A DNA stretch of 61,201 nt, taken from positions 1 to 61,201 of the IMG/VR virus record IMGVR_UViG_3300009790_000010; one strand, 5' to 3'. Position 1 is the first letter of the stretch. Every line of letters starts with the position of its first letter. The position numbers and the translations under genes are program-made. Below, piece after piece: positions 25,409 through 39,226 of the stretch. The stretch comes from a virus. Lineage: Duplodnaviria; Caudoviricetes. The notes below the pieces were generated by a model that worked only from the letters and a program-made list of their open reading frames with translations, had not been told where the DNA came from and did no database searches.

Positions 25409-25612
25409 ATGGCACCAAAATTAAAACCAAGCACAAAAGAATATTTAAGAGATTCAAGAGGTAGGATGTTACAGAAGTGGGAATGGAAACATTACACAGT
25501 TGCAAGTACTTCTACTGCTGAACTTAAAAAACTATTAATTAGTCCCTCTATGACCAGAAAAAAGAATGTCATACAGAGAGAGCTTGACAAAAGAAAATTA
25601 TGGCAACATTAA
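25409..25612 (+). CDS. Small basic hypothetical protein
   Basis: Packed ORF overlapping the next gene. Confidence 0.6.
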   Translation: MAPKLKPSTKEYLRDSRGRMLQKWEWKHYTVASTSTAELKKLLISPSMTRKKNVIQRELDKRKLWQH

Positions 25613-26328
25613 GAAAATTAGTTTCAGACGTTCGTGGAACGCATAAGATTTTATCAACAGATGCTCTTATTACAGACCGAGTTATTGCGTCTGAAATAAA
25701 GAATGCATCTCAAATGTTGATAAAGAGAGAAACTAATTTGAGAAAACTATGGGCTAGTGATACATTATACACTACTATTCCATGTTTAGAGATGAAGGAA
25801 GTTCCTATCTCAGAGTGTTGTGAGTATGCAGATGAATGTAATGTGTCTAGAACTGTACATAAGTTACCAAGAATATCAGAAGGTAACTATCAGTATGTAA
25901 TACAAGGTGTATATTCTATAGATGCTATGGGAGGAAGAGGCAGTAAACTAAAAGAAATAACAATAAATAGGTATTTAAACTTACTTAAATTACCTATAGT
26001 AAAAAATGATTATTACTTCTGGATATCTAATGGATATCTATATGTAAATAATCCTTTACTAAAAGCAATAAGACTAGCTGCATTCTTTGAAGAAGATGTA
26101 CCTAGTGAAATTATGTATCCAGATTGTGATTGTGGAGGTGTAGAATATACGGATGAAGAGTATTGTAAAAACCCTTTAGACAAAGAATATGCACTACCAG
26201 GTTATCTAGAGTCTTCAGCTCTTGGATTAGTATCTCAGAAACTTCTAGCTACATATTTCCAAATTAAAACCGATATGAGTAATGAAGGCATAGATGGACA
26301 AGCTCCAAATGCCCAACCAACTCAGTAA
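25600..26328 (+). CDS. Putative tail ring protein
   Basis: crAss ring-like pattern (LCLE-like PCLE, YFWISNGYLYV, PLDKEYALP); position before IHF-ring-muzzle. Confidence 0.65.
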   Translation: MATLRKLVSDVRGTHKILSTDALITDRVIASEIKNASQMLIKRETNLRKLWASDTLYTTIPCLEMKEVPISECCEYADECNVSRTVHKLPRISEGNYQYVIQGVYSIDAMGGRGSKLKEITINRYLNLLKLPIVKNDYYFWISNGYLYVNNPLLKAIRLAAFFEEDVPSEIMYPDCDCGGVEYTDEEYCKNPLDKEYALPGYLESSALGLVSQKLLATYFQIKTDMSNEGIDGQAPNAQPTQ

Positions 26329-26338
26329 TAAATTATAT

Positions 26339-26818
26339 ATGTCACGAGTAGCAGTTGACTGGCGAAGTGCAAGTAAAAAGAATTACGAGGACTTCTGTAA
26401 GAAGCACCCTTTAATATCCTTAACTTTTGATGAGTGGAGGAATATTCTTTATGGTTTTAATGAGTCATTTAAACACTACATTTTAGAGACAGGAGAAAAA
26501 GAAAAACTCCCTACAGGTTTTGGAGAGTTTTCAATTAATAAAAAGAAAAGAAGAAGAACTAAAGGTATTAATGGAAAAGAGTTTATAAATCTTCCTATTG
26601 ATTGGCAGAAGACCAGAGAGAAAGGAAAGGTTGTTTACAATTTTAATTATCATACCGAAGGATATTTTTTTGGATGGATGTGGTTTAAACAAACTGCTAG
26701 ATTTAGAAACTCAGATCTTTGGTACTTTAAACCATCTAGGAAAACATCAAGAGATCTTTCTCAGTATATAAAAGCAGATCCTAAATACCAACATACCTAT
26801 CATGAATGGAAAAAATAA
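26339..26818 (+). CDS. IHF-like protein of the crAss tail module
   Basis: KLPTGFGEFSINKKK and IDWQKT; ATG 26339 avoids overlap with the previous gene. Confidence 0.7.
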   Translation: MSRVAVDWRSASKKNYEDFCKKHPLISLTFDEWRNILYGFNESFKHYILETGEKEKLPTGFGEFSINKKKRRRTKGINGKEFINLPIDWQKTREKGKVVYNFNYHTEGYFFGWMWFKQTARFRNSDLWYFKPSRKTSRDLSQYIKADPKYQHTYHEWKK

Positions 26819-26821
26819 GTT

Positions 26822-27838
26822 ATGTCATACTACTATAAATACGATTTTGTATCCCCAGAGCCTCTATATGCTACAGTAAAAGAAGAGCTTAAAAGTTATT
26901 TTGATACTGGTGCTGTAGATGATTTATTATTCCCTACCTATCTAGACAAATGTCTAAGAAAGATGGGCAGAACAACTTATAAAATTACTACAGAAGTTTT
27001 ATTTATAGAAGACTTTCAGGCAAGATTACCAGATAACTTTCATGCAGTGAGAGAAGCATGGATGTGTGCTGTAATTCCAGGGAACCCTTATCCAGCAGCA
27101 TCTTCTTTCTACACTCAAGCTGCAAATGCTACTACTATTCAAGTGGCACCTCTAACTATAGGTGGTACACCTTGTAATAATCCTAAATGTCAACATCCTA
27201 ACTGTGATGGAACATGTATGCCTGAAGTGGTACAAGCTGTATATAAAACAAACAGTGAAATACCTAGAGCGTACAGAAGAACCTACTTACTTAAACCAGG
27301 AAATATATCTGCACGTAAAAGTTGTAATGTAGACTACACTAGTTCGTGGAGTCAATATAATCAACTAGCTGTAGCAGGTCGTGAATTTACTCCTGGATCT
27401 TCCACTTACGATTCTTTTGATATAAGAGATAATAAGTTTGTTACAAACTTTAGAAGAGGAGTAGTTCATTTAGTATTCTATTCTACTGATTATGATAAAA
27501 TAGGTAATCAATTAGTACCAGACAACTATCGTGTAAGAGAATACATAGAATCATTTATTAAATTTAAAGTATTTGAAACTCTAACTAATCAAACCAATGA
27601 TGAAACATTTAATCAATTACAAACAAAGTTAGTCTATTATAAACAATTAGCAGACGAAGCTTGGGTTATGGCAGAAACAGAACTTAAAAAAGAGACAACT
27701 TATCAAAAACAAAGAAGAGTTGTAACTGATCTTAATCGTAATAACATGTATGAATTACCTGATGCAAAGTCTCAAGTATCAGGAAGATACTCAAATAGAT
27801 ACGGGTATGGTTTATGGAGACGTAATGGTTGGAGTTAA
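26822..27838 (+). CDS. Tail tubular/ring protein (P22 gp4-like position)
   Basis: Directly before the muzzle; IEDFQARLPDNF; Cys-rich insert CNNPKCQHPNCDGTC. Confidence 0.65.
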   Translation: MSYYYKYDFVSPEPLYATVKEELKSYFDTGAVDDLLFPTYLDKCLRKMGRTTYKITTEVLFIEDFQARLPDNFHAVREAWMCAVIPGNPYPAASSFYTQAANATTIQVAPLTIGGTPCNNPKCQHPNCDGTCMPEVVQAVYKTNSEIPRAYRRTYLLKPGNISARKSCNVDYTSSWSQYNQLAVAGREFTPGSSTYDSFDIRDNKFVTNFRRGVVHLVFYSTDYDKIGNQLVPDNYRVREYIESFIKFKVFETLTNQTNDETFNQLQTKLVYYKQLADEAWVMAETELKKETTYQKQRRVVTDLNRNNMYELPDAKSQVSGRYSNRYGYGLWRRNGWS

Positions 27839-27848
27839 TAAATAGTAT

Positions 27849-30800
27849 ATGGCTACTAAAAAAGAAAAAGACGACATTGCTTCAGGTTTAAGTGCGGCTA
27901 AGAAAAAAGTTGCTGCTGCTCAGAAGATGGATGCTGCTCAGAAAGGACAGGTAAGGCTTGAATATAATCAAGCTCAGACTGGTCTTAATATGGATAGCAC
28001 TATCAATCAAGTAAAGACAGGTAGTCTTACTTATGCATTGAATGCTACTGTAGAAAACTTTGATTCTAGTTCTGTAAACTATCAAAACGAACCTGGTAAT
28101 GAACCGTGTCTCTCCTTTCCTAATGGGTATGAACTTATAGGAAAACATACTATTCCTGAGAAAAAGATAAACATATTCTTTCTAACTAATCCTGCCACTA
28201 GTGATAGTGAAATTGGCTTCATGTATAATAATGATTGTCAATATCGCAAGCTAGTAAATGCTCCTTGTTTAAATTTTAGTATTGATCATCCTATACCAAA
28301 GGTGGTACATCGAATAACAAACTGTACTACAGAGATATATTGGACTGATGGATTTAATCCTCGAAGATATTTAGATGTAGAATTAGATGAAAATTTAGTA
28401 CCTATTAATCTTCCTTATGTATTACTAAGTGGGTCTCCTGATTGTTTTCCTGTATATAGTGATGAGTTAGACTGTAATCAATTAAAGATACAGCCGAACT
28501 TTGATATACCTTTATTAGAAATTAGTAGTGTTTTAAATGTAGGGAGTTTAGTGGCTGGAACTTATCAGTTTGCTGTGCAATATGCAGATGCATTAGGTAA
28601 TGACTTAACTTCTTATTATTCTGTTACCAATCCTACACCAATTGCTGATCCTCTTATCACTACTGTAAACTTCAATTATCCTGTGGGTAAATCAATAGAA
28701 GTAAAAGTATCAAACATAGATATTTCAGGACAATATGGATACTATAATATTGCTGTAATAAAAACTATAAATGATATTTCATCAGTAGAATTAGTAGGCA
28801 CTTACAGTATTACTGAAAAGGAGGAGGTTATAACATATACAGGAGCAGATGCAAGTCCTATTCAATTATCTATTGCTGATATCTTTGAGAAATATCCTTA
28901 TTATGATGTAGCGGGAGATCTAACTACTGTTCAAGATATATTAGTGTGGGACAATTTAACATCTATAGATAGAATCAACTATCAAGGTATAGCAAATCAA
29001 ATAAATTTAGATTGGCAGACACATAGATTACCTCCAGACGAAAATTATTCTGATGAGTTAAATGCTACTAATCTTCGTGGATATATGCGTGATGAGATAT
29101 ATGCATTTGAAATAGCTTTCCTTTTAAGAAATGGAAAACAAACAGATTCGTTCCACATACCTGGACCTGCTAATCCTGGAGTATTATATCCTGATGTACC
29201 TAATACCAATGATGACTTTATTGGAGAACCTGATTATTATCAAAATGGTATAGGATACAGTGCATATTGGAAGATATATAATACTGCTCGATTAATAGAT
29301 TATGAGGCATCTGCAGACCAACAAGCAGATCCTAACTATAAAGGACCTTGGCAATACGGAGAATTTGCATACTGGGAATCTACAGAGAAGTATCCCTGTA
29401 ACGAAGATATGTGGGGAGAGTTAGCTGATAAACCTATTAGACATCATAAGTTTCCAGATGTATTGGTAAGCCCTATTGTAGAGAATAGTGAAATTGTATA
29501 TCAAGATGGACAAATAGTTCCTGACATGCAAGACAGTGCAGTGTTTCCTCTGGGAGTAAAAATTGATAATACTCAAATATCAACTTTAATAGCAACCTCA
29601 GGTTTAACACAAGATCAAAAAGATGATATTGTAGGATACAAAATTGTTAGAGGAGATCGTGGTACAAACAAATCAGTAATAGCAAAAGGTATACTTAGAA
29701 ACATGAATAAGTATACTAGAGAAGATCAAGAATATTACTATCCTAATTATCCTTACAACCAAGTATCTGGACAAGATGCATTTATACAAGAGAATAATAA
29801 TGCTTATAACATAGATTCTAAACCATGGCTTGTATATTTCCCTAAGCAAGAAGTTATTCCTAGTTGGGAGGATGGATATGATCTGGATGATCCATACGAG
29901 GAGATGGAATGGTGGCAAGAGATTGGTGACTTTATCGAACAAGAAGATGGAGTTTTTCAATATACCAGTGTAGAAAATGGTAAACCTACTCCAGCACCTA
30001 TTAAGCCAGGATGTGTGGTAGAAGTATGTTCTCTCACAAGACCTATAGGCCTTAGAGGAATAATGACAATAGGTCCTGGTGATTATGATGCATGGAGATG
30101 TTATAATGGTAGTAATGCTATTGCTGGTTTCAGAACTATATCTCAAAACCCTTTCAATACTCTAAACTTTGATGGCACTATTGCAGCACGTAAATTCTGG
30201 GAGACTGATGTAGTGTTTGGTCTCATCGGTACGGATGAGAAAGGAACTGTCCTAACTCCTATAGATCCTGACTTTGATTATGCAGATGGAGCTGCAGTTG
30301 GTACTAATGCTCATGATCATATATGGCGTCCAGAGATTCAAAGACCAGGTCCTGATTATTTAACTGCTGCAAGAGTAAAATTACACAACTATAATCAAGC
30401 TTCAGAGTGTCCAGATTCTTCAAATATAGCATCATGGCCAATTGGATGTTTTGATCAATTAGAGGGAGATGATGTTCCGTGTAGTGGTGGTTCGAGTAAT
30501 AGTGCTTGTCAATGTTGTGAGGGAAGAAATGAACCAGGTCTTCCGGCATTTGGACTACCTACTAATCCTCTTCCTGAAATAGAACCTAATCCAACTACCA
30601 GTGAAAATACTTTTAAACCTCAAACAGCTTTCACTGATGGTGGGAGTGGGGCACTGAGCGGTTATAGTAGACACGGTAGAAGGTCTTGTTTAAAGTGTGA
30701 TAGAAATGTACCTATTAAACCATTAGATGGTCAGGATGCAGAGGATGTAAAAAATCTTCTAGATAAAGTAGTTTTTAATTCTCCTGATACTTCATTCGGA

Positions 30801-33800
30801 CAACCCTTCTTAGGAAGTGTATTGAAGTTAGAAAGTGTAATGTTTGGAGGGGGTAAAGGGCACTTTGTAGAGGTTAAAGATAATGCTAAATATAAACTAC
30901 TTAGTAAGGAGGCTCAACAAGATGCATTAGATAGTTCAGAAAGAGTAGCTAACATGGGCTCCGATGGATTCAATGCTGGTATAATGTTTACAGTGTATCA
31001 GTCCTATCTTACTATCTATATCAATGGTATAACAAGACAGAATTATGCAATGTCTTTTAACTCAAGAGCTAACTATGATTATTCTTTTCCTATTGACAAT
31101 AATGTTAGCGGTGGTATCAAACAAAGAGAAATAGAACTTACTAGATATTTAATACCAGGAGTACAATCATTTAATAATAATGACTTCCCTATAAATAATT
31201 GGAATAGAGAATCTTCAGTATATATAAAAACTAAAGCTAGAACAATTACTACTGAACCTCTACCTCTTCCACAAAATACAGATAGTCTTCTAGATACTGA
31301 TGGTAATCCTAGTATTGTAGAGTTTTCAAGATTCAATATTGGGCAGATAGGTAATTGTGATAAACCTAGTAAAGAAGAAGACATAAAGGTAGTATCTTAT
31401 TATGCTTCAATGAAGAATATAATACCTAACCAATGGGGACAAATAAACTCCTTCCAAAGAATAGATACTGGTTATCAGAGTCTTGTTACAGCAGAAGGAA
31501 CATCTAGTATATTTGGAGGAGATGTATACATCTCTCGTTTTGCATTTAAAACTAAACTACCATTCTTTATTGATAATAGAGTAAATGCTCCTGATGATTC
31601 TGATATATTCTTTGATGAAATAAGTAATGTGGCCTATGCTAAATACTGGCATTCAGCTAGGTCTATATTGTCCAACTATACTGTGACCTCAGGAGACGAT
31701 GCACCTCAAAATATGTTCAATCTTATATCTACTAAGGCTCATAATTTAGATTGTGCTTCTGATCCTTCGACTTATACTCAGGGTACATTTAATAATATAG
31801 CAGGTACTTACAGAACTTTCTATGATGGATATATGTATTTGTTTGCATACGGTATTCCTAACTTCTATTGTGAAAGTGTATATAATACCGACTTACGTCA
31901 AGCATTTAATACTAAAGAAGGAGACTTCTGGCCTCATGTAAATAGTAGTATTCCGGATGATTGGGTTCAAGAAAGTAATGTACCTATCGCACAAGATAAT
32001 ACATACTATTATAATGTTACATTCTCTAAACAAAACAAAGAAAATGTATTTACTCAACTACCTTTAGATTGGTCCGATGTATGTTTTACATTCTTTCCAT
32101 TTAGAGCTATCTATTCAGATACACAAACAGACAGTCCAGATAATAGAGTGAATAATTGGTTGGTATATAGAGCTGCATCTTTCTTTGACTTCCCACAAAA
32201 CTATGGAGCTTTAACATCATTAGATGGTATTGAAGATAAGGGAGTACTAGCAAGATTTGAAAACAAAGCCCTATTATATAATAAACTACTTACAATAGAT
32301 ACAAGTAATCCTCAAGCAGCTTACATAGGTAATCCTAGATTGTTTTCTAGTTCTCCTCCAATAGACTTTGCTGAAACTGATCTTGGTTATGTAGGTTCTC
32401 AACATAAATTCTTACTTAAGTTACCATATGGTCAAGTTACTGCAGATGCTAAAAGAGGACAAATTTTTCTTATATCAGGAGGAAAGTCTATTGACCTAAC
32501 AGGAGTGCAATCAGGAGTAAATCGATTTATAACAAACAGTTTACCTTTTGAAATACTAGAGTACTTCCCAGAGGTAAATGTAGATAACCACTTTGCTGGA
32601 ATAGGACTACACGGAGTTTATGATAGTAAGTTTGATAGAATAATTATTACCAAACTAGATTATATTCCTCTAAATGATGGGATATATTATGACCCATCAG
32701 ATAAAAACTTTTATATAGATATACCAGATGATCCTTCTACGCCAGAAGAAGATAGTGTAAGACAAGAGGTATTCTTATTTGATGAAAATTATTTCTGTAA
32801 TAAGTCATGGACTATGTCTTTTGATTTTAGTACTAAGAGTTGGATATCATTTCACTCTTACTTACCTAATTTCTATATTGGGGAAAATAATTTCTACTAT
32901 TCAGGCATCAATGAATGCTGTTCAAATTTTACTGCAGTACTTGAAACTCCTGATAGAAGTAAAATTGGAGATGAGGAACCTGCTCTTGATATGATAATAG
33001 GAGTGCTGGATCCTGTTGCTCTTATTACAACTAGTACAACTACTACTTCTAATCCTTTATTTACCACTACTACAACTACTGCATATATACCTGACTGCTC
33101 TATTAACATAGCGATATCAGAAGAACTAGGATGTGAGATAGATGGAGTAGGGTATATAACTGTACCTAGTCCTACCACTACAACAATATGTGTGAGACCT
33201 GAACCTCTCGCATCAAATATATTTGTAGAAGGGTATCAAATAAAAGGAACTGCTACTCCAGTAGTAGGAACAGCCACTGCAGAAAGAGCATGTGCTGTAG
33301 CTTCGTTTGCTTTTAATGCTACATCAAACGATGAGATTATTCCTATTAACTTTAATTATGAACATTATGTATTCCCTGCAACAAATAGTATTGTTAATGC
33401 TCAAGTATGGTTAGGTTTAGGTGATGATTGTACATCTGTTCCTGATGGTTGGTATAGTAATCAAGGAGAACCTAACAATGTCTACTATGTAGAAAATGGG
33501 TTTATAAGACAAGAAGTACCGTGTGATTGTAATACTACTGCACCTACCACCACTGCATATACAGGAAGCTTTAATGAATGTTGTGCATGGTTATTAAATG
33601 ATGATGATGGTAATGTTAAATTATATGACTCTTTCCATTATACTGGTGTTCCAATTACAATACCTGGATATACTGCTGGTACTAAACTAGCAATTGGACC
33701 GAATACTTTATATGCATGGGATGGTAGTTTAGCATTTAACAAATGGACTATAAATACAACTAACTGGAGTGCAGTAAAAGAGTTAGATATAACACCAGCT

Positions 33801-34022
33801 GGATTTAATACAACAGCTGGAGTGGTAGTTAAAGATGATAATACACTAATAGCACTAGACACAACTGCAGGTGATGTAGTAGAGATAGATACTTCAACAG
33901 CAGCAGTAACAGTTAAGTTTACTTTACCAGTTGGTTATACATGGACAACAAATCTACTATATACTAGAACAGGTAAACTAATAACAATAGGAAAAAACAC
34001 TGGAACAACAGATTTCCATTAA
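27849..34022 (+). CDS. Muzzle/tail stabilization protein, N-terminal part with insertions
   Basis: IYWTDGFNPRRY, GTYQFAVQY, GYMRDEIYAF, IRHHKFPD, GGDVYISRF, WISFHSYLP; size and position match the crAss muzzle. Confidence 0.82.
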   Translation: MATKKEKDDIASGLSAAKKKVAAAQKMDAAQKGQVRLEYNQAQTGLNMDSTINQVKTGSLTYALNATVENFDSSSVNYQNEPGNEPCLSFPNGYELIGKHTIPEKKINIFFLTNPATSDSEIGFMYNNDCQYRKLVNAPCLNFSIDHPIPKVVHRITNCTTEIYWTDGFNPRRYLDVELDENLVPINLPYVLLSGSPDCFPVYSDELDCNQLKIQPNFDIPLLEISSVLNVGSLVAGTYQFAVQYADALGNDLTSYYSVTNPTPIADPLITTVNFNYPVGKSIEVKVSNIDISGQYGYYNIAVIKTINDISSVELVGTYSITEKEEVITYTGADASPIQLSIADIFEKYPYYDVAGDLTTVQDILVWDNLTSIDRINYQGIANQINLDWQTHRLPPDENYSDELNATNLRGYMRDEIYAFEIAFLLRNGKQTDSFHIPGPANPGVLYPDVPNTNDDFIGEPDYYQNGIGYSAYWKIYNTARLIDYEASADQQADPNYKGPWQYGEFAYWESTEKYPCNEDMWGELADKPIRHHKFPDVLVSPIVENSEIVYQDGQIVPDMQDSAVFPLGVKIDNTQISTLIATSGLTQDQKDDIVGYKIVRGDRGTNKSVIAKGILRNMNKYTREDQEYYYPNYPYNQVSGQDAFIQENNNAYNIDSKPWLVYFPKQEVIPSWEDGYDLDDPYEEMEWWQEIGDFIEQEDGVFQYTSVENGKPTPAPIKPGCVVEVCSLTRPIGLRGIMTIGPGDYDAWRCYNGSNAIAGFRTISQNPFNTLNFDGTIAARKFWETDVVFGLIGTDEKGTVLTPIDPDFDYADGAAVGTNAHDHIWRPEIQRPGPDYLTAARVKLHNYNQASECPDSSNIASWPIGCFDQLEGDDVPCSGGSSNSACQCCEGRNEPGLPAFGLPTNPLPEIEPNPTTSENTFKPQTAFTDGGSGALSGYSRHGRRSCLKCDRNVPIKPLDGQDAEDVKNLLDKVVFNSPDTSFGQPFLGSVLKLESVMFGGGKGHFVEVKDNAKYKLLSKEAQQDALDSSERVANMGSDGFNAGIMFTVYQSYLTIYINGITRQNYAMSFNSRANYDYSFPIDNNVSGGIKQREIELTRYLIPGVQSFNNNDFPINNWNRESSVYIKTKARTITTEPLPLPQNTDSLLDTDGNPSIVEFSRFNIGQIGNCDKPSKEEDIKVVSYYASMKNIIPNQWGQINSFQRIDTGYQSLVTAEGTSSIFGGDVYISRFAFKTKLPFFIDNRVNAPDDSDIFFDEISNVAYAKYWHSARSILSNYTVTSGDDAPQNMFNLISTKAHNLDCASDPSTYTQGTFNNIAGTYRTFYDGYMYLFAYGIPNFYCESVYNTDLRQAFNTKEGDFWPHVNSSIPDDWVQESNVPIAQDNTYYYNVTFSKQNKENVFTQLPLDWSDVCFTFFPFRAIYSDTQTDSPDNRVNNWLVYRAASFFDFPQNYGALTSLDGIEDKGVLARFENKALLYNKLLTIDTSNPQAAYIGNPRLFSSSPPIDFAETDLGYVGSQHKFLLKLPYGQVTADAKRGQIFLISGGKSIDLTGVQSGVNRFITNSLPFEILEYFPEVNVDNHFAGIGLHGVYDSKFDRIIITKLDYIPLNDGIYYDPSDKNFYIDIPDDPSTPEEDSVRQEVFLFDENYFCNKSWTMSFDFSTKSWISFHSYLPNFYIGENNFYYSGINECCSNFTAVLETPDRSKIGDEEPALDMIIGVLDPVALITTSTTTTSNPLFTTTTTTAYIPDCSINIAISEELGCEIDGVGYITVPSPTTTTICVRPEPLASNIFVEGYQIKGTATPVVGTATAERACAVASFAFNATSNDEIIPINFNYEHYVFPATNSIVNAQVWLGLGDDCTSVPDGWYSNQGEPNNVYYVENGFIRQEVPCDCNTTAPTTTAYTGSFNECCAWLLNDDDGNVKLYDSFHYTGVPITIPGYTAGTKLAIGPNTLYAWDGSLAFNKWTINTTNWSAVKELDITPAGFNTTAGVVVKDDNTLIALDTTAGDVVEIDTSTAAVTVKFTLPVGYTWTTNLLYTRTGKLITIGKNTGTTDFH

Positions 34023-34569: not shown

Positions 34570-35439
34570 ATGTCAAAAGTAATAAATTTAAAAATAACAG
34601 CAGCTACCCCTAGATCAGGACCTTTTGATATAATTCTTGATAACGGAGATATTATAGCTATTGGTTTAAGCTTAAGTGATTTAGTACACGGTGTAAGTTA
34701 TGAGGTACCTTCAGCTGTGGCTGCAGTTACTGTACGTTCTACAGGAGATTGTGAGTTCACAAAAACCTTTTTAGTAAGAGACAGTATTCCTAATCAAGAG
34801 TACATAAATGCAACATTTACTAAACTAAGAACAGGTTGTTTGTGGACCCATTTGAGAAACGATACTTTGTATAATTATTACTACGGAGATATTGCTCCTT
34901 ATATAATTGAGTATCCTTTTGCATATAAGTATCATGACCAGATACTACAGAATATAAAAGATTATAGTAAGGTGTATACATATATACCATCAACTCTAGG
35001 ATCATTTGATTCTAATAGTAAAATACAAACAGACGATAAATACTTTAATAAGGCTGTGTTATATAATGGACAACAGTCAACTGGTATAATAGAACTTGTA
35101 CCTAAACCAATGAATAACTTAAGTGAATATCTACAATACCCTATATTAAATAGTGATAGTAAAACTATTACATTTGCAAAGACAGATAGTTTCTATCAAT
35201 ATAATACTTTCTGGGCATTACAAAAAGATGATAAAGTACCTCTGTTTAAAACATCCTGTGAATCTAAATCAATAGATAAGGTGGTTAATCAGGACAACAT
35301 GAACTATGGTGACTTATCATTTAAGAAGTCACAACTAAGAGCTAAGAACGTAAAGGTGAGACACATATTAGACAACTCCTCTACTACACATATTGTGAGT
35401 CAGTTTATTGTAGCACCAGCACAAATATCATATAAATAA
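34570..35439 (+). CDS. GPFxLFS-like domain copy 5 fused to the probable muzzle C-terminal part
   Basis: N-terminal SGPFDI...VTVRSTGDC; then LWTH...YYG...PYIIEY, FNKAVLYNGQQSTG and LRAK. Confidence 0.7.
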   Translation: MSKVINLKITAATPRSGPFDIILDNGDIIAIGLSLSDLVHGVSYEVPSAVAAVTVRSTGDCEFTKTFLVRDSIPNQEYINATFTKLRTGCLWTHLRNDTLYNYYYGDIAPYIIEYPFAYKYHDQILQNIKDYSKVYTYIPSTLGSFDSNSKIQTDDKYFNKAVLYNGQQSTGIIELVPKPMNNLSEYLQYPILNSDSKTITFAKTDSFYQYNTFWALQKDDKVPLFKTSCESKSIDKVVNQDNMNYGDLSFKKSQLRAKNVKVRHILDNSSTTHIVSQFIVAPAQISYK

Positions 35440-37586
35440 TGGCATTAACACCAGGTAAAGCAAAGAAAATGTTAGACGATGGAACTGTCCATGGTAGATC
35501 TCTGACTGATAAGCAGAAGAGATACTTCGGTGCTATAGCTGGAGGTGCAACACCTATGAAAAAGATCAACGGTGGTTGGTTAGACAAGTATGCAATGGGA
35601 GGTAGTCTTCCTGGTGCATCAGGTATGATGTACGGACGTTCTAATACAATGCCTCCATTATTTACTCAATCAGAAATGAAAGCTCCTTCATTTGCAGATT
35701 CATTAACTAAAGCTCAAAAGGGAACAAAAGAAGAAGTAGGCGATTTAGTTATGTATGGAACTCCAGAGTATGAAGCTGCATATAAAGAAGGAAGAATTAT
35801 TGGAAGAGATGGAACTATACCACTAGATGAAGTAGTTGTTAGAGCAGGTGTTGATTATGAAAAGCATTCTCGTTATAATCTTCTATCTCCACAACAGAAA
35901 GAGTATTATTTCGATGATGGACCAATTGGTAGAGGTGTACAAAGAGCTGCTCGAACAGACAGAGGATTATATGAAGACACACTAGATGTTGTTAATCCTA
36001 TATTATATACAGCAATAGGTACTGCTGCTCTTATGTCCCCACTAGGACAACCTATCACACAAGCACTTGGAGGTGCTGGTCGTGGAATATATAGTAAGGT
36101 TGCTCCTTGGGTTTCAAAAGCATGGAACTATACACCATTTAAAGGTCCTGGGTTTCAGCCTACAGTAGGGAACGTAGTGAATACAGGATTTTTAGCTGAT
36201 GGTATTAGAAGGTTCCCACAGAGTTATCGTAATATGCGTGATGATCCTTCTTGGTCTAATGCTGGTTGGTTAGGACTTAATGCTCTAGAAGTTGGGATAC
36301 CAGGTAACACTGGATTTCAATATATTAGACCACAAACCAGTGGAATTTCTCCTTTTATAGATGACCTAGGAAGAACTATAACAGCTAATACTAAAGCAGG
36401 ACGAGAGTATCAAAGAGTAGCTCAAAAACACTTGCAGTCAGCAGATATGTGGGGCCAGAGATATTTTAATAATCCTATAACAACAACAAGGATGTCTGAT
36501 GAAATGCTAACAGGTTTTAATTCTGCTCCTCCTATATCTCCACCAGGAGTGACTTCATTTAACTTCGCAATGAGTCCAGTTGAAGTAGTTAATGATTACA
36601 AAAAGCTGAGGGCGGGTTTACCTGATGATGAGGTGATTGATATGGTTTTAAAATATCAAAAGCTAAATCCTAACATGGTAGTAACTCCTCAGAACTTAGC
36701 TAATCAACTTAGTGTAAATGTGTCTAGGTATAATCGAATGAACCCTGGGGTTACTCACTCAACACTGAGTCCTTTAGACAATTCAGCTGGTGTTTCTAAT
36801 GTTTTAGGTAGATACTCTCATATCCATAATGATCGTGTGATAGATATAGGTAATCCTATTTTTACAGGTTTAAAGAATTATAAAGATTTTCGTATCAACC
36901 CCTTTGGAAAAAGTAAACTATATGATAATGCCAATTTCGATAAGATCTATCAAACTGCAATTCATGAAGGAGATCACTTCTACAGAGTTGGATCAAGAGG
37001 AAACTTAACAGCTACTGATATAAAATTACTTATGCCTTTTAAACAAGGTCTAATAAATAAGTATGGTAAATACATGAATGAGTCTGGTGAAATAATATTG
37101 AAATCTGATGCTGCAAAAGCTTTAAAGAAAAGTGATCCTGAGGCATTCGCAAAACTTGAGTTTGCAAAATATGCAGGTACAGCACCAGAAATAAATGCTC
37201 GAATAACACAAATAAGAAACCTGTATAATATTAAACCAGGGCAACAGGTGGATATGAGTACAGTAGAAGAAATTATTAGAGCTGGAAAAGCTGGGGAACT
37301 TGGTACAGGATTGGGTGGAGGTAAAAAAGGATTCTCAGAATTCTTCGACTTTATAGATGACGTGCAAGGAAATGTACCTGGTAGTGTAGCTACTACAAAA
37401 GAATGGTTGCAAGGTATATTAATGAACATGTCCAAAACTGGTTCAAAAATAAAACCTCTTAAATATGGAGGTAATGTTGATAAAGCACAAGAGGGAGAAG
37501 TTTTAGGATTTGATAATATACTAGATTATATAGTAGAAACTAGAGACGGAACTAGAGATATGTGGGAGAGGTTGCAGATACAATAG
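35439..37586 (+). CDS. Ejection/cargo polyprotein, part 1 (hydrophobic segment, HExxH module)
   Basis: Follows the muzzle; GGWLDKY, KAQKG, LDEVVV, HEGDH; ends in the only TAG stop among the called genes. Confidence 0.7.
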   Translation: MALTPGKAKKMLDDGTVHGRSLTDKQKRYFGAIAGGATPMKKINGGWLDKYAMGGSLPGASGMMYGRSNTMPPLFTQSEMKAPSFADSLTKAQKGTKEEVGDLVMYGTPEYEAAYKEGRIIGRDGTIPLDEVVVRAGVDYEKHSRYNLLSPQQKEYYFDDGPIGRGVQRAARTDRGLYEDTLDVVNPILYTAIGTAALMSPLGQPITQALGGAGRGIYSKVAPWVSKAWNYTPFKGPGFQPTVGNVVNTGFLADGIRRFPQSYRNMRDDPSWSNAGWLGLNALEVGIPGNTGFQYIRPQTSGISPFIDDLGRTITANTKAGREYQRVAQKHLQSADMWGQRYFNNPITTTRMSDEMLTGFNSAPPISPPGVTSFNFAMSPVEVVNDYKKLRAGLPDDEVIDMVLKYQKLNPNMVVTPQNLANQLSVNVSRYNRMNPGVTHSTLSPLDNSAGVSNVLGRYSHIHNDRVIDIGNPIFTGLKNYKDFRINPFGKSKLYDNANFDKIYQTAIHEGDHFYRVGSRGNLTATDIKLLMPFKQGLINKYGKYMNESGEIILKSDAAKALKKSDPEAFAKLEFAKYAGTAPEINARITQIRNLYNIKPGQQVDMSTVEEIIRAGKAGELGTGLGGGKKGFSEFFDFIDDVQGNVPGSVATTKEWLQGILMNMSKTGSKIKPLKYGGNVDKAQEGEVLGFDNILDYIVETRDGTRDMWERLQIQ

Positions 37587-39226
37587 CTTACCATGAATCT
37601 GGACATACTATGAACCCTAAGCAAAAACAAATAGGTGGAGGCCCAGGTAGAGGTGCGTTTCAATTTGAAGGTCCTTCACTTATTACAGCACAGAACAGAT
37701 ACAAGACTGTTGCTAATGTAATGGGTCTAGATTTTAATCCTAACATCTTGAATGCTAAATCAGCAGATGAACTATCACTAGAAGATCAGTATACTTTATT
37801 CTATGTAAACCTGTTAGAAGGTGATGCAGAATTAGGAAAATATCCAAAAGGTGAACTAGATCTAATAGATCTATGGTTACAAGGACATAAGAATGTAGAA
37901 GTTCCAGGTAATAGAGAATCTTTTTTACACAGTAGAGAAACAGCTAAAGAGAAAGGTATAGAAGGGGGATATAAAACTTTCAAAACAGGAGGATGGTTAG
38001 ATAAGTATGAAGTGATAGAAGATGACATGGGACAGTTAACCAACCCAGGAAAGATAACTAAAATAAACTCCAACAACATAACAATGAAAGGAGTAGACTT
38101 TCCTGTGCTAGGAATATCTGACACTGGTGATAAGAAGATGATGCAACCAGGTAAAGATTACAAGTTTGATGGTAACTCTGTTACAGAGTATCCTATGGCA
38201 CAAGGTGGTATGAATGTACCTCTTAAAACGGTTAATAAGTTTGGCGAACTAGAAAGACTAACTTACCCAAGTAGTGTATGGAAAGACAAAGAAGGTAATC
38301 CTGAACAACTCGTTATGTTAGATGAAGTAGTTGTTGATTCAAAAGGTCCTATAGCATTAGCTAAAGAACAAATGGAAGAGTATGGAATTCCTAATTTTCA
38401 AACAGCAGGTTATGTTAAAGGTAAGTCTGAAAGAGCATATAATAATATAACTCCTGAAGGTTATGGAAACATACTAAAAAATCTTGATAGAAAAAAGAGA
38501 TATGATGAAGACCTAGGACGTGATCCAGAAGCTTTGTGGCATTCGGGCCCCAAAGATAATAAGAGACACTACATTATACCTAACCGAGAAGATGCATTTA
38601 GACTATATCTAGGAATGCCACAAGTTAATAATAGTTTTGCTGTAAGTGATTACAGACCGGGTGACTCAGAAGATAAGAGTATGGTTTATTTAAAACCTAA
38701 TTACTTTAATGAAGCTCCTATTAGACAGGCATTAGTAGATCAGTATTTTCAAAGAAAGAAAGATGGATATGTTGATAAAGATAAAAAAACAATAGGTAAT
38801 GAAAGAGGACTACCAAGAGGAAAATATCAAGGAGATGGTACAACATGGCCTGAGGCAGATAACTCTTTAGGAGATTTTACATTTGATATGGGAGAGGATG
38901 AAAAAGGAACTTACATATCTATATATGATATATGGGACTTGAATCCATTCCAACAGGGAGAGGGATCATCTGTAAATAAGGCAGGTCGGGCTTTGTTAAA
39001 TTGGTTTAATAAACAAAGTAAGAACAAAGCTACTTCAGAATCAGAAGTATCTGCTTTATTTGGAGCAGGAAAACCATTTGAAATATATGAAAGAATATAT
39101 ATTGACCCAGAAACCAAGAAAATAATACAGATGAAACAGGGAGGATCTTTGGTCAGATTAGATCAATTGACTAACTTTACAAACTATAATACCCCACAAC
39201 CAGGCGGCTGGTTAGATAAATACTAA
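37562..39226 (+). CDS. Ejection/cargo polyprotein, part 2 (lysozyme-like module and others), probably continuous with part 1
   Basis: Weak GTG start mid-domain; IAYHES...GGGPGRGAFQFE; two further GGWLDKY. Confidence 0.7.
   Translation: MGEVADTIAYHESGHTMNPKQKQIGGGPGRGAFQFEGPSLITAQNRYKTVANVMGLDFNPNILNAKSADELSLEDQYTLFYVNLLEGDAELGKYPKGELDLIDLWLQGHKNVEVPGNRESFLHSRETAKEKGIEGGYKTFKTGGWLDKYEVIEDDMGQLTNPGKITKINSNNITMKGVDFPVLGISDTGDKKMMQPGKDYKFDGNSVTEYPMAQGGMNVPLKTVNKFGELERLTYPSSVWKDKEGNPEQLVMLDEVVVDSKGPIALAKEQMEEYGIPNFQTAGYVKGKSERAYNNITPEGYGNILKNLDRKKRYDEDLGRDPEALWHSGPKDNKRHYIIPNREDAFRLYLGMPQVNNSFAVSDYRPGDSEDKSMVYLKPNYFNEAPIRQALVDQYFQRKKDGYVDKDKKTIGNERGLPRGKYQGDGTTWPEADNSLGDFTFDMGEDEKGTYISIYDIWDLNPFQQGEGSSVNKAGRALLNWFNKQSKNKATSESEVSALFGAGKPFEIYERIYIDPETKKIIQMKQGGSLVRLDQLTNFTNYNTPQPGGWLDKY

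What the first reader, a model, noticed from the sequence alone, without database searches (positions are those of the whole stretch)
35823..38335. TonB-box-like LDEVVV motifs at the start of two ejection-protein modules
Seen: LDEVVV occurs at 35823-35840 and 38318-38335 with an identical 17-nt DNA core, each about 35-40 aa after an AQxG motif and ahead of an unrelated domain. Known: LDEVVVxG/A is the TonB-box consensus of Bacteroidetes SusC-like transporters, and group B colicins use their own TonB box to be pulled across the outer membrane. Inference: ejected phage proteins, or fragments released from them, may engage host TonB directly, a colicin-like delivery route I do not know to be described for phage ejection proteins.
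Basis: partly seen in the sequence, partly recalled or inferred. Interest (0 to 1): 0.85.

Follow-up and report, generated by a model that had tools for sequence, protein, structure and literature searches.

The report
Host-type TonB boxes in phage cargo protein
A crAss-like phage carries, in the flexible linkers of a protein it probably injects into its host, two exact copies of the short peptide that Bacteroidota outer-membrane transporters use to dock onto the energy-transducing protein TonB, which suggests that the phage hooks its injected proteins onto the host's own molecular winch.

Summary

- **In the window:** LDEVVV occurs twice (35823-35840, 38318-38335), where 0.0015 copies are expected by chance.
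- **Gene context:** The two ORFs sit at the crassvirus cargo-gene position. In relatives they are one mosaic gene; a 1-nt difference in a G-run splits them here.
- **Conservation:** The hexapeptide is kept in 57 of 58 homologous modules of one type and 6 of 6 of the other. It heads at least 9 unrelated downstream modules, 3-80 aa after an AQxG junction motif, in AlphaFold low-confidence linkers.
- **Match to the host box:** It equals the published Bacteroides SusC TonB-box consensus. In a Flavobacteriaceae genome, 27 of 32 sites encoding it lie just before a TonB-dependent transporter plug domain.
- **Complex model:** A model with a Flavobacteriaceae TonB C-domain passes (score 0.61, best control 0.00) and shows the canonical parallel strand pairing.
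- **Other phages:** LDEVV[VIM]T[AG] coding sites number 69 in IMG/VR, against 9 and 7 for composition-matched controls. They include tape-measure, internal-virion and crassvirus cargo proteins.

Binding, host identity and function are not shown. ΦcrAss001 and four other phages lack the motif.

The parts
35439..37586 (+). ORF P0001 (715 aa). It is the N-terminal part of a mosaic 'polyvalent' cargo-position protein: conserved 51-aa leader, disordered linker, Ton-box-like motif, then a helical module with a conserved HExxH.
37562..39226 (+). ORF P0002 (554 aa). In relatives it is the C-terminal continuation of the same gene. It holds a weakly lysozyme-like module, GGWLDKY, a small beta domain, AQGG, a linker with the Ton-box-like motif, a folded C-domain and a terminal GGWLDKY.
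35823..35840 (+). Ton-box-like motif 1, LDEVVV (P0001 aa 129-134).
   Evidence: Lies in low-confidence segment 118-138. Contacts TonB residues 222-233 in the complex model.
38318..38335 (+). Ton-box-like motif 2, LDEVVV (P0002 aa 253-258).
   Evidence: Lies in low-confidence segment 214-260, between the small beta domain and the folded domain that starts near aa 261. 6 of 6 homologous modules keep LDEVVV.
35712..35723 (+). AQKG junction motif, 37 aa upstream of box 1.
   Evidence: K91, A92 and G95 are invariant in alignment A2. 67 of 77 Ton-like boxes in the family are directly preceded by AQxG.
38198..38209 (+). AQGG junction motif, 40 aa upstream of box 2. Relative P0335 has an extra ~320-aa module inserted at this junction.
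35571..35591 (+). GGWLDKY motif 1, at the end of the conserved N-terminal leader.
37988..38008 (+). GGWLDKY motif 2, internal module boundary.
39203..39223 (+). GGWLDKY motif 3, the exact C-terminus of P0002.
   Evidence: 202 of 334 family proteins end with this motif within 2 aa of the C-terminus.
37564..37566 (+). GGG run where the P0001 frame (…RDMWERLQIQ*) and the P0002 frame (…GEVADTIAYHESG) part. Relatives read straight through (…RDMWGEVADTIAYHESG).
36963..36977 (+). HEGDH (HExxH, P0001 aa 509-513), a candidate zincin-type peptidase motif. No Pfam match.
   Evidence: HExxH in 13 of 14 aligned rows; no Pfam family
25600..27838 (+). Context: crassvirus tail ring protein 2 (25600-26328) and ring protein 1 (26822-27838).
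   Evidence: PF25702, E 5.4e-19; PF24228, E 1.6e-08
27849..34022 (+). Context: 2057-aa virion protein, weakly and colinearly similar to the ΦcrAss001 muzzle protein gp44.
   Evidence: phrog_37948, E 4e-115; BLASTP E 4e-5 and 0.002

Best explanation
The two LDEVVV hexapeptides are short linear motifs that mimic the TonB box of the host phylum's TonB-dependent transporters. They sit in flexible linkers at the N-terminal edge of two modules of one large mosaic protein, encoded at the cargo position of a crAss-like phage.

**Proposed mechanism.** The protein leaves the virion N-terminus first and partly unfolded, and so reaches the periplasm. Each box is then captured by the C-terminal domain of host TonB through parallel beta-strand addition. 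The TonB-ExbBD motor, driven by the proton-motive force, then pulls on or anchors the chain, helping to extract and position the module that follows. Group B colicins and pyocin S2 are pulled in the same way by their own TonB boxes.

**Shown here:**
- The motif and its conservation.
- Its location in linkers.
- Its identity to the Bacteroidota box.
- Its specificity for transporter TonB boxes in a Flavobacteriaceae genome.
- Its excess in phage proteins.

**Modelled only:** docking to TonB.

**Inferred:**
- A Bacteroidota host.
- Packaging and ejection of the protein.
- N-first exit from the virion.
- A pulling role.
- Possible cleavage at the AQxG or GGWLDKY junctions by the protein's own HExxH module, which would leave each box near a new N-terminus.
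For: **1. Match to the known box.**
- The published consensus for 100 B. theta SusC-like proteins is DEVVV(V/T/I).
- Bt1763 has 82-DEVVVTG-88, and deleting 81-VDEVVV-86 or changing it to alanines causes growth defects on levan similar to the ΔSusD strain (passages read).
- In Arenibacter nanhaiticus, 19 of 30 examined plug-domain loci show L[DE]E[VI][VI][VI]-type boxes such as ALDEVVVVGYG and DLEEVIVTGKS.
- In the same genome, 32 sites encode [LF][DE]EVV[VIM], against 4 for the reversed pattern. By my comparison of coordinates, 27 of the 32 lie 80 nt or less upstream of a Plug match on the same strand.

**2. Conservation at protein level.**
- 57 of 58 P0001-type modules keep LxE[VIM]Vx, and 6 of 6 P0002-type modules keep LDEVVV.
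- Synonymous codons vary: 14 DNA versions in 19 occurrences.

**3. Portability.**
- The box heads at least 9 unrelated downstream sequences.
- It is often followed by T-A/G and a basic stretch, as in transporters.
- 67 of 77 boxes directly follow an AQxG junction (median gap 24 aa), and the next motif is at least 148 aa away.

**4. Accessibility.** Both boxes lie in segments with pLDDT below 50, between better-modelled parts.

**5. Complex model.**
- Chains: Arenibacter TonB residues 118-233 with P0001 residues 100-160.
- Score 0.61 (runs 0.61, 0.84, 0.01); best of 3 controls 0.00.
- The runs agree in at least 34% of contacts, and partner pLDDT is at least 41.
- The mark was reached by 58 of 80 solved complexes and 2 of 110 mismatched pairs. 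These counts hold only roughly, because my own alignments were used.
- The best contacts pair TonB 222-230 with phage 126-134 in parallel register. That is the mode described for the BtuB, FhuA and FoxA complexes (PMC7014051 passage).

**6. Independent recurrence.**
- The IMG/VR scan for LDEVV[VIM]T[AG] (Leu as TTR) found 69 loci, 57 of them in open frames of 100 aa or more.
- Two composition-matched permuted controls found 9 loci (5 in such frames) and 7 loci (3 in such frames).
- Seventeen ORFs from these loci outside this family were put through PHROGs and/or Pfam. A tape measure protein, a PG-binding virion protein, a crAss_CARG1 cargo protein and an internal virion protein with endolysin domain carry the box.

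**7. Cargo position.** The ORFs follow ring proteins 2 and 1 and a muzzle-like gene. A family member, P0146, carries PF25725 crAss_CARG1 in the precomputed Pfam column. Others carry LysM, SLT, YkuD and PG_binding_1, which are periplasm-acting modules.
Against: - No binding measurement exists. The complex model can pass from memory of solved TonB/Ton-box complexes, and one of the three runs scored 0.01.
- The host is unknown. The closest terminase (41%) is from a phage recorded on the cyanobacterium Leptolyngbya, although 29 Flavobacterium and 9 Cellulophaga phage records are among the 77 hits. The TonB used is a stand-in.
- The box is not universal. Only 17 of 150 leader-defined representatives have the strict form. 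AQxG junctions (533) far outnumber boxes (77).
- ΦcrAss001 has none in gp45/gp46. 0 of 5 phage genomes (623,416 bases) have the coding pattern.
- Low pLDDT may reflect shallow alignments (16 and 18 rows) rather than disorder.
- Packaging, ejection and periplasmic exposure of P0001/P0002 are inferred. hhalign finds no relation between the P0001 family and ΦcrAss001 gp45 (probability 0.9%).
- One IMG/VR hit lies inside a tail sheath domain, which is not an ejected protein. Some of the other hits must be chance, since the controls gave 9 and 7.
- A virion carries few cargo copies, and no precedent for a phage protein with a TonB box was found in the literature searches.
Confidence: 0.42

Rival explanations
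1. The boxes do bind TonB, but as a decoy or anchor and not as a winch. They would occupy TonB to shut down TonB-dependent transporters (blocking nutrient import or superinfection through transporter receptors), or tether the ejectosome to the inner-membrane Ton complex.
For: All the TonB-likeness evidence applies equally. IMG/VR also holds small phage ORFs that consist only of a SusC-type N-terminal extension domain plus LDEVV[VI]TA, with no barrel (L123, 154 aa; L102, 140 aa; Pfam CarbopepD_reg_2). These look like free decoys.
Against: Cargo copy number per virion is small: up to about 12 copies of the smaller cargo proteins in ΦcrAss001 (PMC10172136 passage). Titrating cellular TonB from incoming virions therefore seems unlikely. 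The boxes always sit upstream of a large module (the next motif is at least 148 aa away), which fits pulling better than titration.
Confidence: 0.13
2. The hexapeptide is a phage-internal signal, and its likeness to the host Ton box is coincidental. It would be a beta-strand that docks the unfolded cargo onto portal, tail-barrel or muzzle proteins, or onto a packaging factor.
For: In ΦcrAss001, short structured stretches of cargo protein bind the portal, the tail barrel and the muzzle (PMC10172136 passages). The box travels with other family-specific motifs of unknown role (GGWLDKY, AQxG). Any V-rich strand can add to a sheet.
Against: The match is exact over 6-8 residues, including the Bacteroidota-specific Glu and the following T-A/G. 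The same octapeptide recurs in unrelated virion architectures, namely a siphophage-type tape measure, an internal virion protein and a crass cargo protein, which share no common internal partner. The reversed and permuted controls are 8-10 times rarer.
Confidence: 0.18
3. The motif is a proteolytic processing site. It would be cleaved either by a T4-type L-x-E| prohead protease or by the protein's own HExxH module, and would mark where modules are cut apart.
For: L-D-E fits the T4 gp21 rule, Leu/Ile-x-Glu (recalled, not from a call). P0001 carries a conserved HExxH (13 of 14 aligned rows). Many family proteins end exactly at GGWLDKY (202 of 334), which suggests processing at junctions.
Against: The three residues after the Glu (V-V-[VIM]) are as conserved as L-x-E, which an L-x-E| rule does not require. 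No prohead-protease family was found in the window by Pfam or PHROGs, though only about 54% of the genome is present. AQxG and GGWLDKY are better candidates for cleavage sites. Cleavage and TonB binding are not mutually exclusive.
Confidence: 0.1
4. The motif is a conserved junction sequence kept at DNA level because it promotes recombinational shuffling of modules. The identical 17 nt in the window would reflect this.
For: The two copies in the window use the same codons, with a chance of about 1-3% given the peptide. The proteins are extremely mosaic.
Against: Among relatives the codons vary freely: 14 DNA versions in 19 occurrences, with Leu as TTA, CTA or TTG, Glu as GAA or GAG, and Val as GTA, GTT or GTG. 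Selection therefore acts on the peptide. 18 nt is very short for homologous recombination.
Confidence: 0.04
5. Chance: two V-rich hexapeptides that happen to coincide.
For: Short motifs do recur by chance in large data sets. One IMG/VR hit lies in a sheath domain.
Against: Only 0.0015 copies are expected in the window's ORFs. The motif is kept in 57 of 58 and 6 of 6 orthologous positions. There are 0 hits in 623,416 bases of five other phage genomes.
Confidence: 0.01

Closest known systems
TonB boxes of group B colicins and S-type pyocins (e.g. pyocin S2 imported through FpvAI)
   Same: A foreign protein carries its own TonB box in an unstructured N-terminal region, upstream of domains that must cross the outer membrane partly unfolded. 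The box engages TonB and the proton-motive force drives translocation (PMC10994204 abstract and passages).
   Different: Here the carrier is a phage virion protein at the cargo locus, not a secreted bacteriocin. The outer-membrane conduit would be the phage tail and not a parasitised transporter. There are two or more boxes per polypeptide, one ahead of each of several modules. The box is of the Bacteroidota type (L[DE]EVV[VI]). Nothing has been tested experimentally.
TonB box of Bacteroidota SusC-like and other TonB-dependent transporters
   Same: Identical core sequence, L-[DE]-E-V-V-[VI], often followed by T-A/G. It lies in a flexible segment, and the model predicts parallel pairing with the last TonB strand.
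   Different: No plug or barrel follows, since Pfam finds no Plug or TonB_dep_Rec in P0001 or P0002. No CarboxypepD_reg N-terminal extension precedes it. The surrounding sequence is phage-specific (AQxG, YGTPEY, GGWLDKY).
Crassvirus cargo proteins C1/C2 (ΦcrAss001 gp45/gp46) and T7 internal core proteins gp14-gp16
   Same: Gene position after the ring and muzzle genes. These are large proteins expected to be stored in the capsid or tail and extruded partly unfolded before the DNA (PMC10172136 passages). Relatives carry peptidoglycan-acting modules.
   Different: There is no detectable homology of the P0001 family to gp45. ΦcrAss001 has no Ton-box-like motif. This family has its own leader and GGWLDKY/AQxG grammar and is far more mosaic.
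Filamentous phage g3p binding TolA, and the TonB-dependent phages T1, φ80 and H8 (recalled from general knowledge, not from a call; H8 is only cited in a reference list seen)
   Same: Phages exploit a periplasm-spanning protein energised by the proton-motive force (TolA or TonB) during entry.
   Different: g3p binds TolA through a folded domain, not a Ton box. T1, φ80 and H8 depend on TonB through their transporter receptor and are not known to carry a box of their own.
Polyvalent proteins of phages and conjugative elements (Iyer et al. 2017; recalled, not read here)
   Same: Very large mosaic proteins that combine many effector and enzyme modules and peptidase domains, and that are delivered with the DNA. 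PF18760 ART-PolyVal is precomputed for several relatives.
   Different: As far as my searches show, no conserved junction grammar (GGWLDKY, AQxG) and no host-type TonB box have been described for them.

Membership tests
TonB box (functional TonB-binding motif, as in TonB-dependent transporters and group B bacteriocins) | Sequence matches the lineage's Ton-box consensus. | tested here: met
   LDEVVV matches DEVVV(V/T/I) of B. theta SusC-like proteins, 82-DEVVVTG-88 of Bt1763, and the boxes of 19 of 30 Arenibacter plug loci. 27 of 32 genomic sites encoding the hexapeptide are transporter boxes.
TonB box (functional TonB-binding motif, as in TonB-dependent transporters and group B bacteriocins) | Lies in a flexible, exposed segment N-terminal to the part that is pulled. 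| tested here: met
   Both boxes lie in segments with pLDDT below 50 (118-138 and 214-260), ahead of modules of 150 aa or more. Caveat: the alignments are shallow.
TonB box (functional TonB-binding motif, as in TonB-dependent transporters and group B bacteriocins) | Forms a parallel beta-strand with strand beta3 of the TonB C-terminal domain. | tested here: inconclusive
   The model passes: 0.61 against a best control of 0.00, contacts TonB 222-230 with phage 126-134 in parallel register, which is the mode reported in PMC7014051. However, it is only a model, it uses a stand-in TonB, it may pass from memory, and only box 1 was tested.
TonB box (functional TonB-binding motif, as in TonB-dependent transporters and group B bacteriocins) | Function depends on TonB/ExbBD and the proton-motive force, and is lost on deleting the box. 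| not testable with these tools
   Needs the host, tonB mutants and phage box mutants.
Crassvirus cargo proteins (C1/C2) | Encoded directly after the tail ring and muzzle genes and before the giant RNAP-associated genes. | tested here: met
   Ring 2 (25600-26328), ring 1 (26822-27838), muzzle-like (27849-34022), two small ORFs, P0001, P0002, then ORFs of 1161, 951 and 4286 aa. The order matches ΦcrAss001 gp43-gp47.
Crassvirus cargo proteins (C1/C2) | Homology to gp45 (Pfam crAss_CARG1). | tested here: inconclusive
   No Pfam hit in P0001 or P0002. hhalign of A2 against gp45 gives probability 0.9%. A family member, P0146, carries PF25725 in the precomputed column.
Crassvirus cargo proteins (C1/C2) | Present in virions and ejected before the DNA. 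| not testable with these tools
   Needs virion mass spectrometry or cryo-EM.
Polyvalent (mosaic multi-module) phage proteins | Large proteins built from shuffled, unrelated modules, including enzymes and a peptidase. | tested here: met
   Hits share 5-40% of the query at 45-88% identity, alongside different partner modules (LysM, SLT, YkuD, PG_binding_1, ART-PolyVal). P0335 has an extra module inserted at the AQGG junction. HExxH is conserved.
T4-type prohead-protease cleavage site (L/I-x-E|) | Only P3-P1 are conserved, and a prohead protease is encoded. | tested here: not met
   The three residues after the Glu are as conserved as L-x-E. No prohead-protease family is found in the window, though the window is about 54% of the genome.

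The most novel reading that the evidence does not exclude
Several unrelated lineages of Bacteroidota phages have independently placed host-type TonB boxes in the disordered linkers of the proteins they eject. The lineages are crass-like podophages with mosaic cargo proteins, phages with CARG1 cargo proteins, phages with internal virion proteins, and tailed phages with tape measure proteins. The host TonB-ExbBD motor would serve as a winch driven by the proton-motive force. It would pull these unfolded proteins, module by module, out of the virion and across the envelope. This would be a general external energy source for phage protein ejection that has not been described.
Probability: 0.3. Interest if true: 0.92.

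Novelty: new variant of a known kind. Interest (0 to 1): 0.8.

Why it matters
How podophages and siphophages drive megadaltons of unfolded protein through a narrow tail and across the envelope before the DNA enters is an open problem. Capsid pressure is usually invoked.

A host-type TonB box on the ejected proteins would point to a concrete external energy source. It would be the same piracy of the Ton motor that bacteriocins use, and it makes the question directly testable with peptides, tonB/exbBD mutants, protonophores and box mutants.

It would also:
- explain a layer of host specificity, because the box must match the host's TonB;
- predict a new route of phage resistance through TonB paralogue variation, since Bacteroides encode many TonBs (PMC10350073 abstract);
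- give a simple sequence marker for finding ejected proteins in uncultured Bacteroidota phages.

If the motif proves to be a phage-internal signal instead, the family's strict junction grammar (leader, GGWLDKY, AQxG, box) is still an undescribed organising principle of a large group of mosaic virion proteins. The conserved leader alone matches 606 of the 50%-identity cluster representatives searched (E <= 0.001).

Tried and rejected
- **Known phages:** blastn and tblastn of the region, P0001 and P0002 against 50,697 phage records gave no match.
- **Bacterial and archaeal genomes:** The search for related loci found 9 pattern stretches and 0 confirmed relatives. There is thus no prophage or host clue.
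- **Protein families:** Pfam and PHROGs on P0001/P0002 gave nothing above threshold; the only hint was a weak Phage_lysozyme2 match (E 0.062) at P0002 aa 9-114. Five long family members had no Pfam family.
- **Solved structures by sequence:** The two P0002 modules had no match.
- **Fold searches of the P0002 model:** Foldseek found nothing at E <= 0.001. VIA-align gave a best Z of 5.3 for the small beta domain 143-221, which is within the noise range. The model has more than 400 residues and single domains were not folded alone, so no fold is excluded.
- **P0001 model:** It is poor (mean pLDDT 43.9) and was not searched.
- **Hydropathy:** The most hydrophobic 19-mer of P0001 (184-202) scores 1.34. 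That is below 1.6, the cut-off I recall as usual, so I do not claim a transmembrane helix.
- **Generality test with an E. coli-type box (DTIVVTA, recalled):** The 7-residue pattern is too unspecific. The result is inconclusive and was not analysed further.
- **Literature:** Searches for LDEVVV, GWLDKY, and 'TonB box' with phage, ejection, mimic or internal virion protein found no paper describing a TonB box in a phage ejection protein. The pelagiphage paper only mentions a phage gene annotated as a TonB-dependent receptor. Subscription journals and supplements were not searchable.
- **Box 2:** Only one complex-prediction job was allowed, so box 2 (P0002) was not modelled with TonB.

Full report
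**1.
- The window reads CTA/TTA GAT GAA GTA GTT GTT at 35823-35840 and 38318-38335.
- These are the only two LDEVVV in all six frames. From the composition of the window's ORFs, 0.0015 are expected.
- The motifs are aa 129-134 of ORF 35439-37586 (P0001, 715 aa) and aa 253-258 of ORF 37562-39226 (P0002, 554 aa).
- AQKG lies 37 aa before the first and AQGG 40 aa before the second.
- Apart from short motifs the two proteins are unrelated (best BLASTP E 0.038).
- A third motif, GGWLDKY, occurs three times, the last as the exact C-terminus of P0002.

**2. What the locus is.**
- The window is a 61,201-base viral record estimated to be 54% complete.
- It has a terminase, a portal and a major head protein, crassvirus ring proteins 2 and 1 (PF25702, PF24228), and a 2057-aa protein weakly colinear with the ΦcrAss001 muzzle gp44.
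- P0001 and P0002 follow, and are followed by ORFs of 1161, 951 and 4286 aa. In ΦcrAss001 this is the position of cargo proteins gp45/gp46 (PMC10172136 passages).
- The terminase is closest to a Leptolyngbya phage (41%), then to Cellulophaga phages (31%) and crAss-like phages (26-29%). Of 77 records hit, 29 are Flavobacterium and 9 Cellulophaga phages. A Bacteroidota host is therefore likely but not shown.
- In relatives the two ORFs are one gene. P0335 (1594 aa) reads …RDMWGEVADTIAYHESG… across the point where the window's frames part at a GGG run, 37564-37566.

**3. The protein family.**
- Homologues are extremely mosaic. Hits share 5-40% of the query at 45-88% identity and carry different partner modules, with precomputed Pfam LysM, SLT, YkuD, PG_binding_1, ART-PolyVal and crAss_CARG1.
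- The 54-aa leader alone finds 606 cluster representatives among 1.84 billion.
- GGW[L]x[KR][YF] occurs in 169 of the first 213 proteins. It lies within 2 aa of the C-terminus in 202 of 334 family proteins.
- The family is absent from 185,579 species genomes and from 50,697 phage records.
- P0001 has a conserved HExxH (13 of 14 aligned rows), so self-processing is conceivable.

**4. The motif in the family.**
- At the homologous position of P0001-type modules, 57 of 58 keep LxE[VIM]Vx: LDEVVI 22, LDEVVV 10 (three of them in a window offset by one residue), LDEVVM 9, LEEVVV 7, and eight other variants together making 9. All 6 P0002-type modules keep LDEVVV.
- Codons vary, with 14 DNA versions in 19 occurrences. 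Selection therefore acts on the peptide, not on the DNA.
- The box precedes at least 9 unrelated downstream sequences, often as LDEVV[VI]-T-[AG] followed by basic residues.
- Of 77 boxes in 334 proteins, 67 directly follow an AQxG junction (gap 3-80 aa, median 24) and 9 follow GGW. The next motif is at least 148 aa away. The box thus marks the N-terminal edge of a module.
- It is not universal: 17 of 150 leader-defined representatives have the strict form.
- In 33 loci of relatives, all 19 occurrences lie in family modules and none in the remaining roughly 175,000 six-frame residues. This set was, however, found through a neighbouring motif.

**5. Likeness to the host TonB box.**
- In passages I read, the consensus of 100 B. 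theta SusC-like proteins is DEVVV(V/T/I) (PMC10350073). Bt1763 has 82-DEVVVTG-88, whose deletion or alanine replacement causes growth defects on levan similar to the ΔSusD strain (PMC7782687).
- The window's 17-mer extended by T-G-Y-G codons hits 5 genome contigs, all Bacteroidota.
- In Arenibacter nanhaiticus, 19 of 30 plug loci examined show such boxes.
- In the same genome, of 32 sites encoding the hexapeptide (reversed control 4), 27 lie just upstream of a Plug match. There, the hexapeptide is nearly diagnostic of a transporter TonB box.

**6. Structure and docking.**
- AlphaFold2 puts both boxes in segments with pLDDT below 50 (P0002 214-260, between a small beta domain and a folded domain; P0001 118-138). 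The alignments were shallow.
- A complex model of Arenibacter TonB 118-233 with P0001 100-160 scored 0.61 (runs 0.61, 0.84, 0.01) against 0.00 for the best of three controls.
- The runs agree in at least 34% of contacts, and partner pLDDT is at least 41.
- The mark was reached by 58 of 80 solved and 2 of 110 mismatched pairs. These counts hold only roughly here.
- TonB 222-230 pairs with phage 126-134 in parallel register, as beta3 does with Ton boxes in solved complexes (PMC7014051).
- This shows likeness, not binding.

**7. Beyond this family.**
- An IMG/VR scan for LDEVV[VIM]T[AG] gave 69 loci, 57 of them in open frames of 100 aa or more. Two permuted controls gave 9 loci (5 in such frames) and 7 (3 in such frames).
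- The 69 loci break down as follows:

| Category | Loci |
|---|---|
| This family | 11 |
| Tape measure protein (L078 scanned; five others share its flanks) | 6 |
| Virion protein with PG_binding_1 (L129 scanned; L121 shares its flanks) | 2 |
| crAss_CARG1 cargo protein (L137) | 1 |
| Internal virion protein with endolysin domain (L138 scanned; L122 and L130 have similar flanks) | 3 |
| Transporters or transporter N-terminal fragments | 5 |
| Tail sheath | 1 |
| No annotation | 28 |
| Short frames | 12 |

- By contrast, ΦcrAss001 has no box in gp45/gp46, and five phage genomes (623,416 bases) have no coding site at all.

**8. Reading.**
- The best explanation is a host-type TonB box used by ejected proteins, working like the boxes of group B colicins and pyocin S2.
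- The box lies N-terminal to each module. In ΦcrAss001 the N-terminal 245 residues of gp45 sit in the tail barrel. Both facts fit N-first exit and pulling.
- The rivals are a decoy or anchor role, a phage-internal docking strand, a protease site, a recombination junction, and chance. They are weighed in their own sections.
- I found no report of a TonB box in a phage ejection protein. Supplements and subscription journals were not searchable.

Noticed in passing
window 37559-37590: P0001 and P0002 are separated only by a frame change at a GGG run (37564-37566). Relatives P0335 and P0034 read through as …WGEVADT… or …WGAVADT…. This could be an assembly error in a homopolymer, a real frameshift mutation, or programmed frameshifting.
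   Followed up: partly
window 35571-35591, 37988-38008, 39203-39223; family proteins P0003-P0454: GGWL[DSNE]K[YF] marks the end of a conserved 51-aa N-terminal leader and internal module ends. It is the exact C-terminus of 202 of 334 family proteins. Its role is unknown; it could be a cleavage site, a C-terminal recognition tag or a packaging signal. No paper contains the string GWLDKY.
   Followed up: partly
window 36963-36977 (P0001 aa 509-513): A conserved HExxH (13 of 14 aligned homologues) lies in the best-modelled part of P0001 (pLDDT 74-88 around aa 530-620), with no Pfam match. It may be an unclassified zincin peptidase that processes the mosaic protein.
   Followed up: partly
L123:5193-5654 (+), L102:1918-2337 (-), L127: Small phage-contig ORFs (154 and 140 aa) consist of a SusC-type N-terminal extension domain (CarbopepD_reg_2) followed by LDEVV[VI]TA and a short tail, without plug or barrel. 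They may be free TonB-box decoys encoded by phages.
   Followed up: no
L078:2213-6109 (-), L137:4160-7957 (+), L129:3171-7520 (+), L138:3496-6489 (+): The same octapeptide LDEVV[VI]T[AG], flanked by low-complexity and basic stretches, occurs in four other ejection-type proteins: a tape measure protein (aa 794), a crAss_CARG1 cargo protein (aa 551), a PG_binding_1 virion protein (aa 105, after a MAQDG junction) and an internal virion protein with endolysin domain (aa 672).
   Followed up: partly
L142:9893-13087 (+), L088:1-954 (-): Complete or partial TonB-dependent transporter genes (CarboxypepD_reg plus outer-membrane barrel) lie on IMG/VR viral contigs. They could be host flanks, contamination or phage-borne auxiliary genes.
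   Followed up: no
window 45652-58512: A 4286-aa ORF has no Pfam or PHROG family at all. It lies where crassviruses encode their giant virion RNA-polymerase-associated proteins.
   Followed up: partly
window 2884-4905: The closest terminase in the phage collection (41% identity) belongs to a phage recorded on the cyanobacterium Leptolyngbya boryana and not to a Bacteroidota phage. This is odd for a genome with crassvirus ring proteins and bears on host assignment.
   Followed up: no
P0335 aa 933-1255, compared with window 38198-38209: A relative has an extra ~320-aa module (with its own HELSH motif) inserted exactly at the AQ[GA]G junction. The AQxG motifs therefore behave as module-swap points.
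   Followed up: partly
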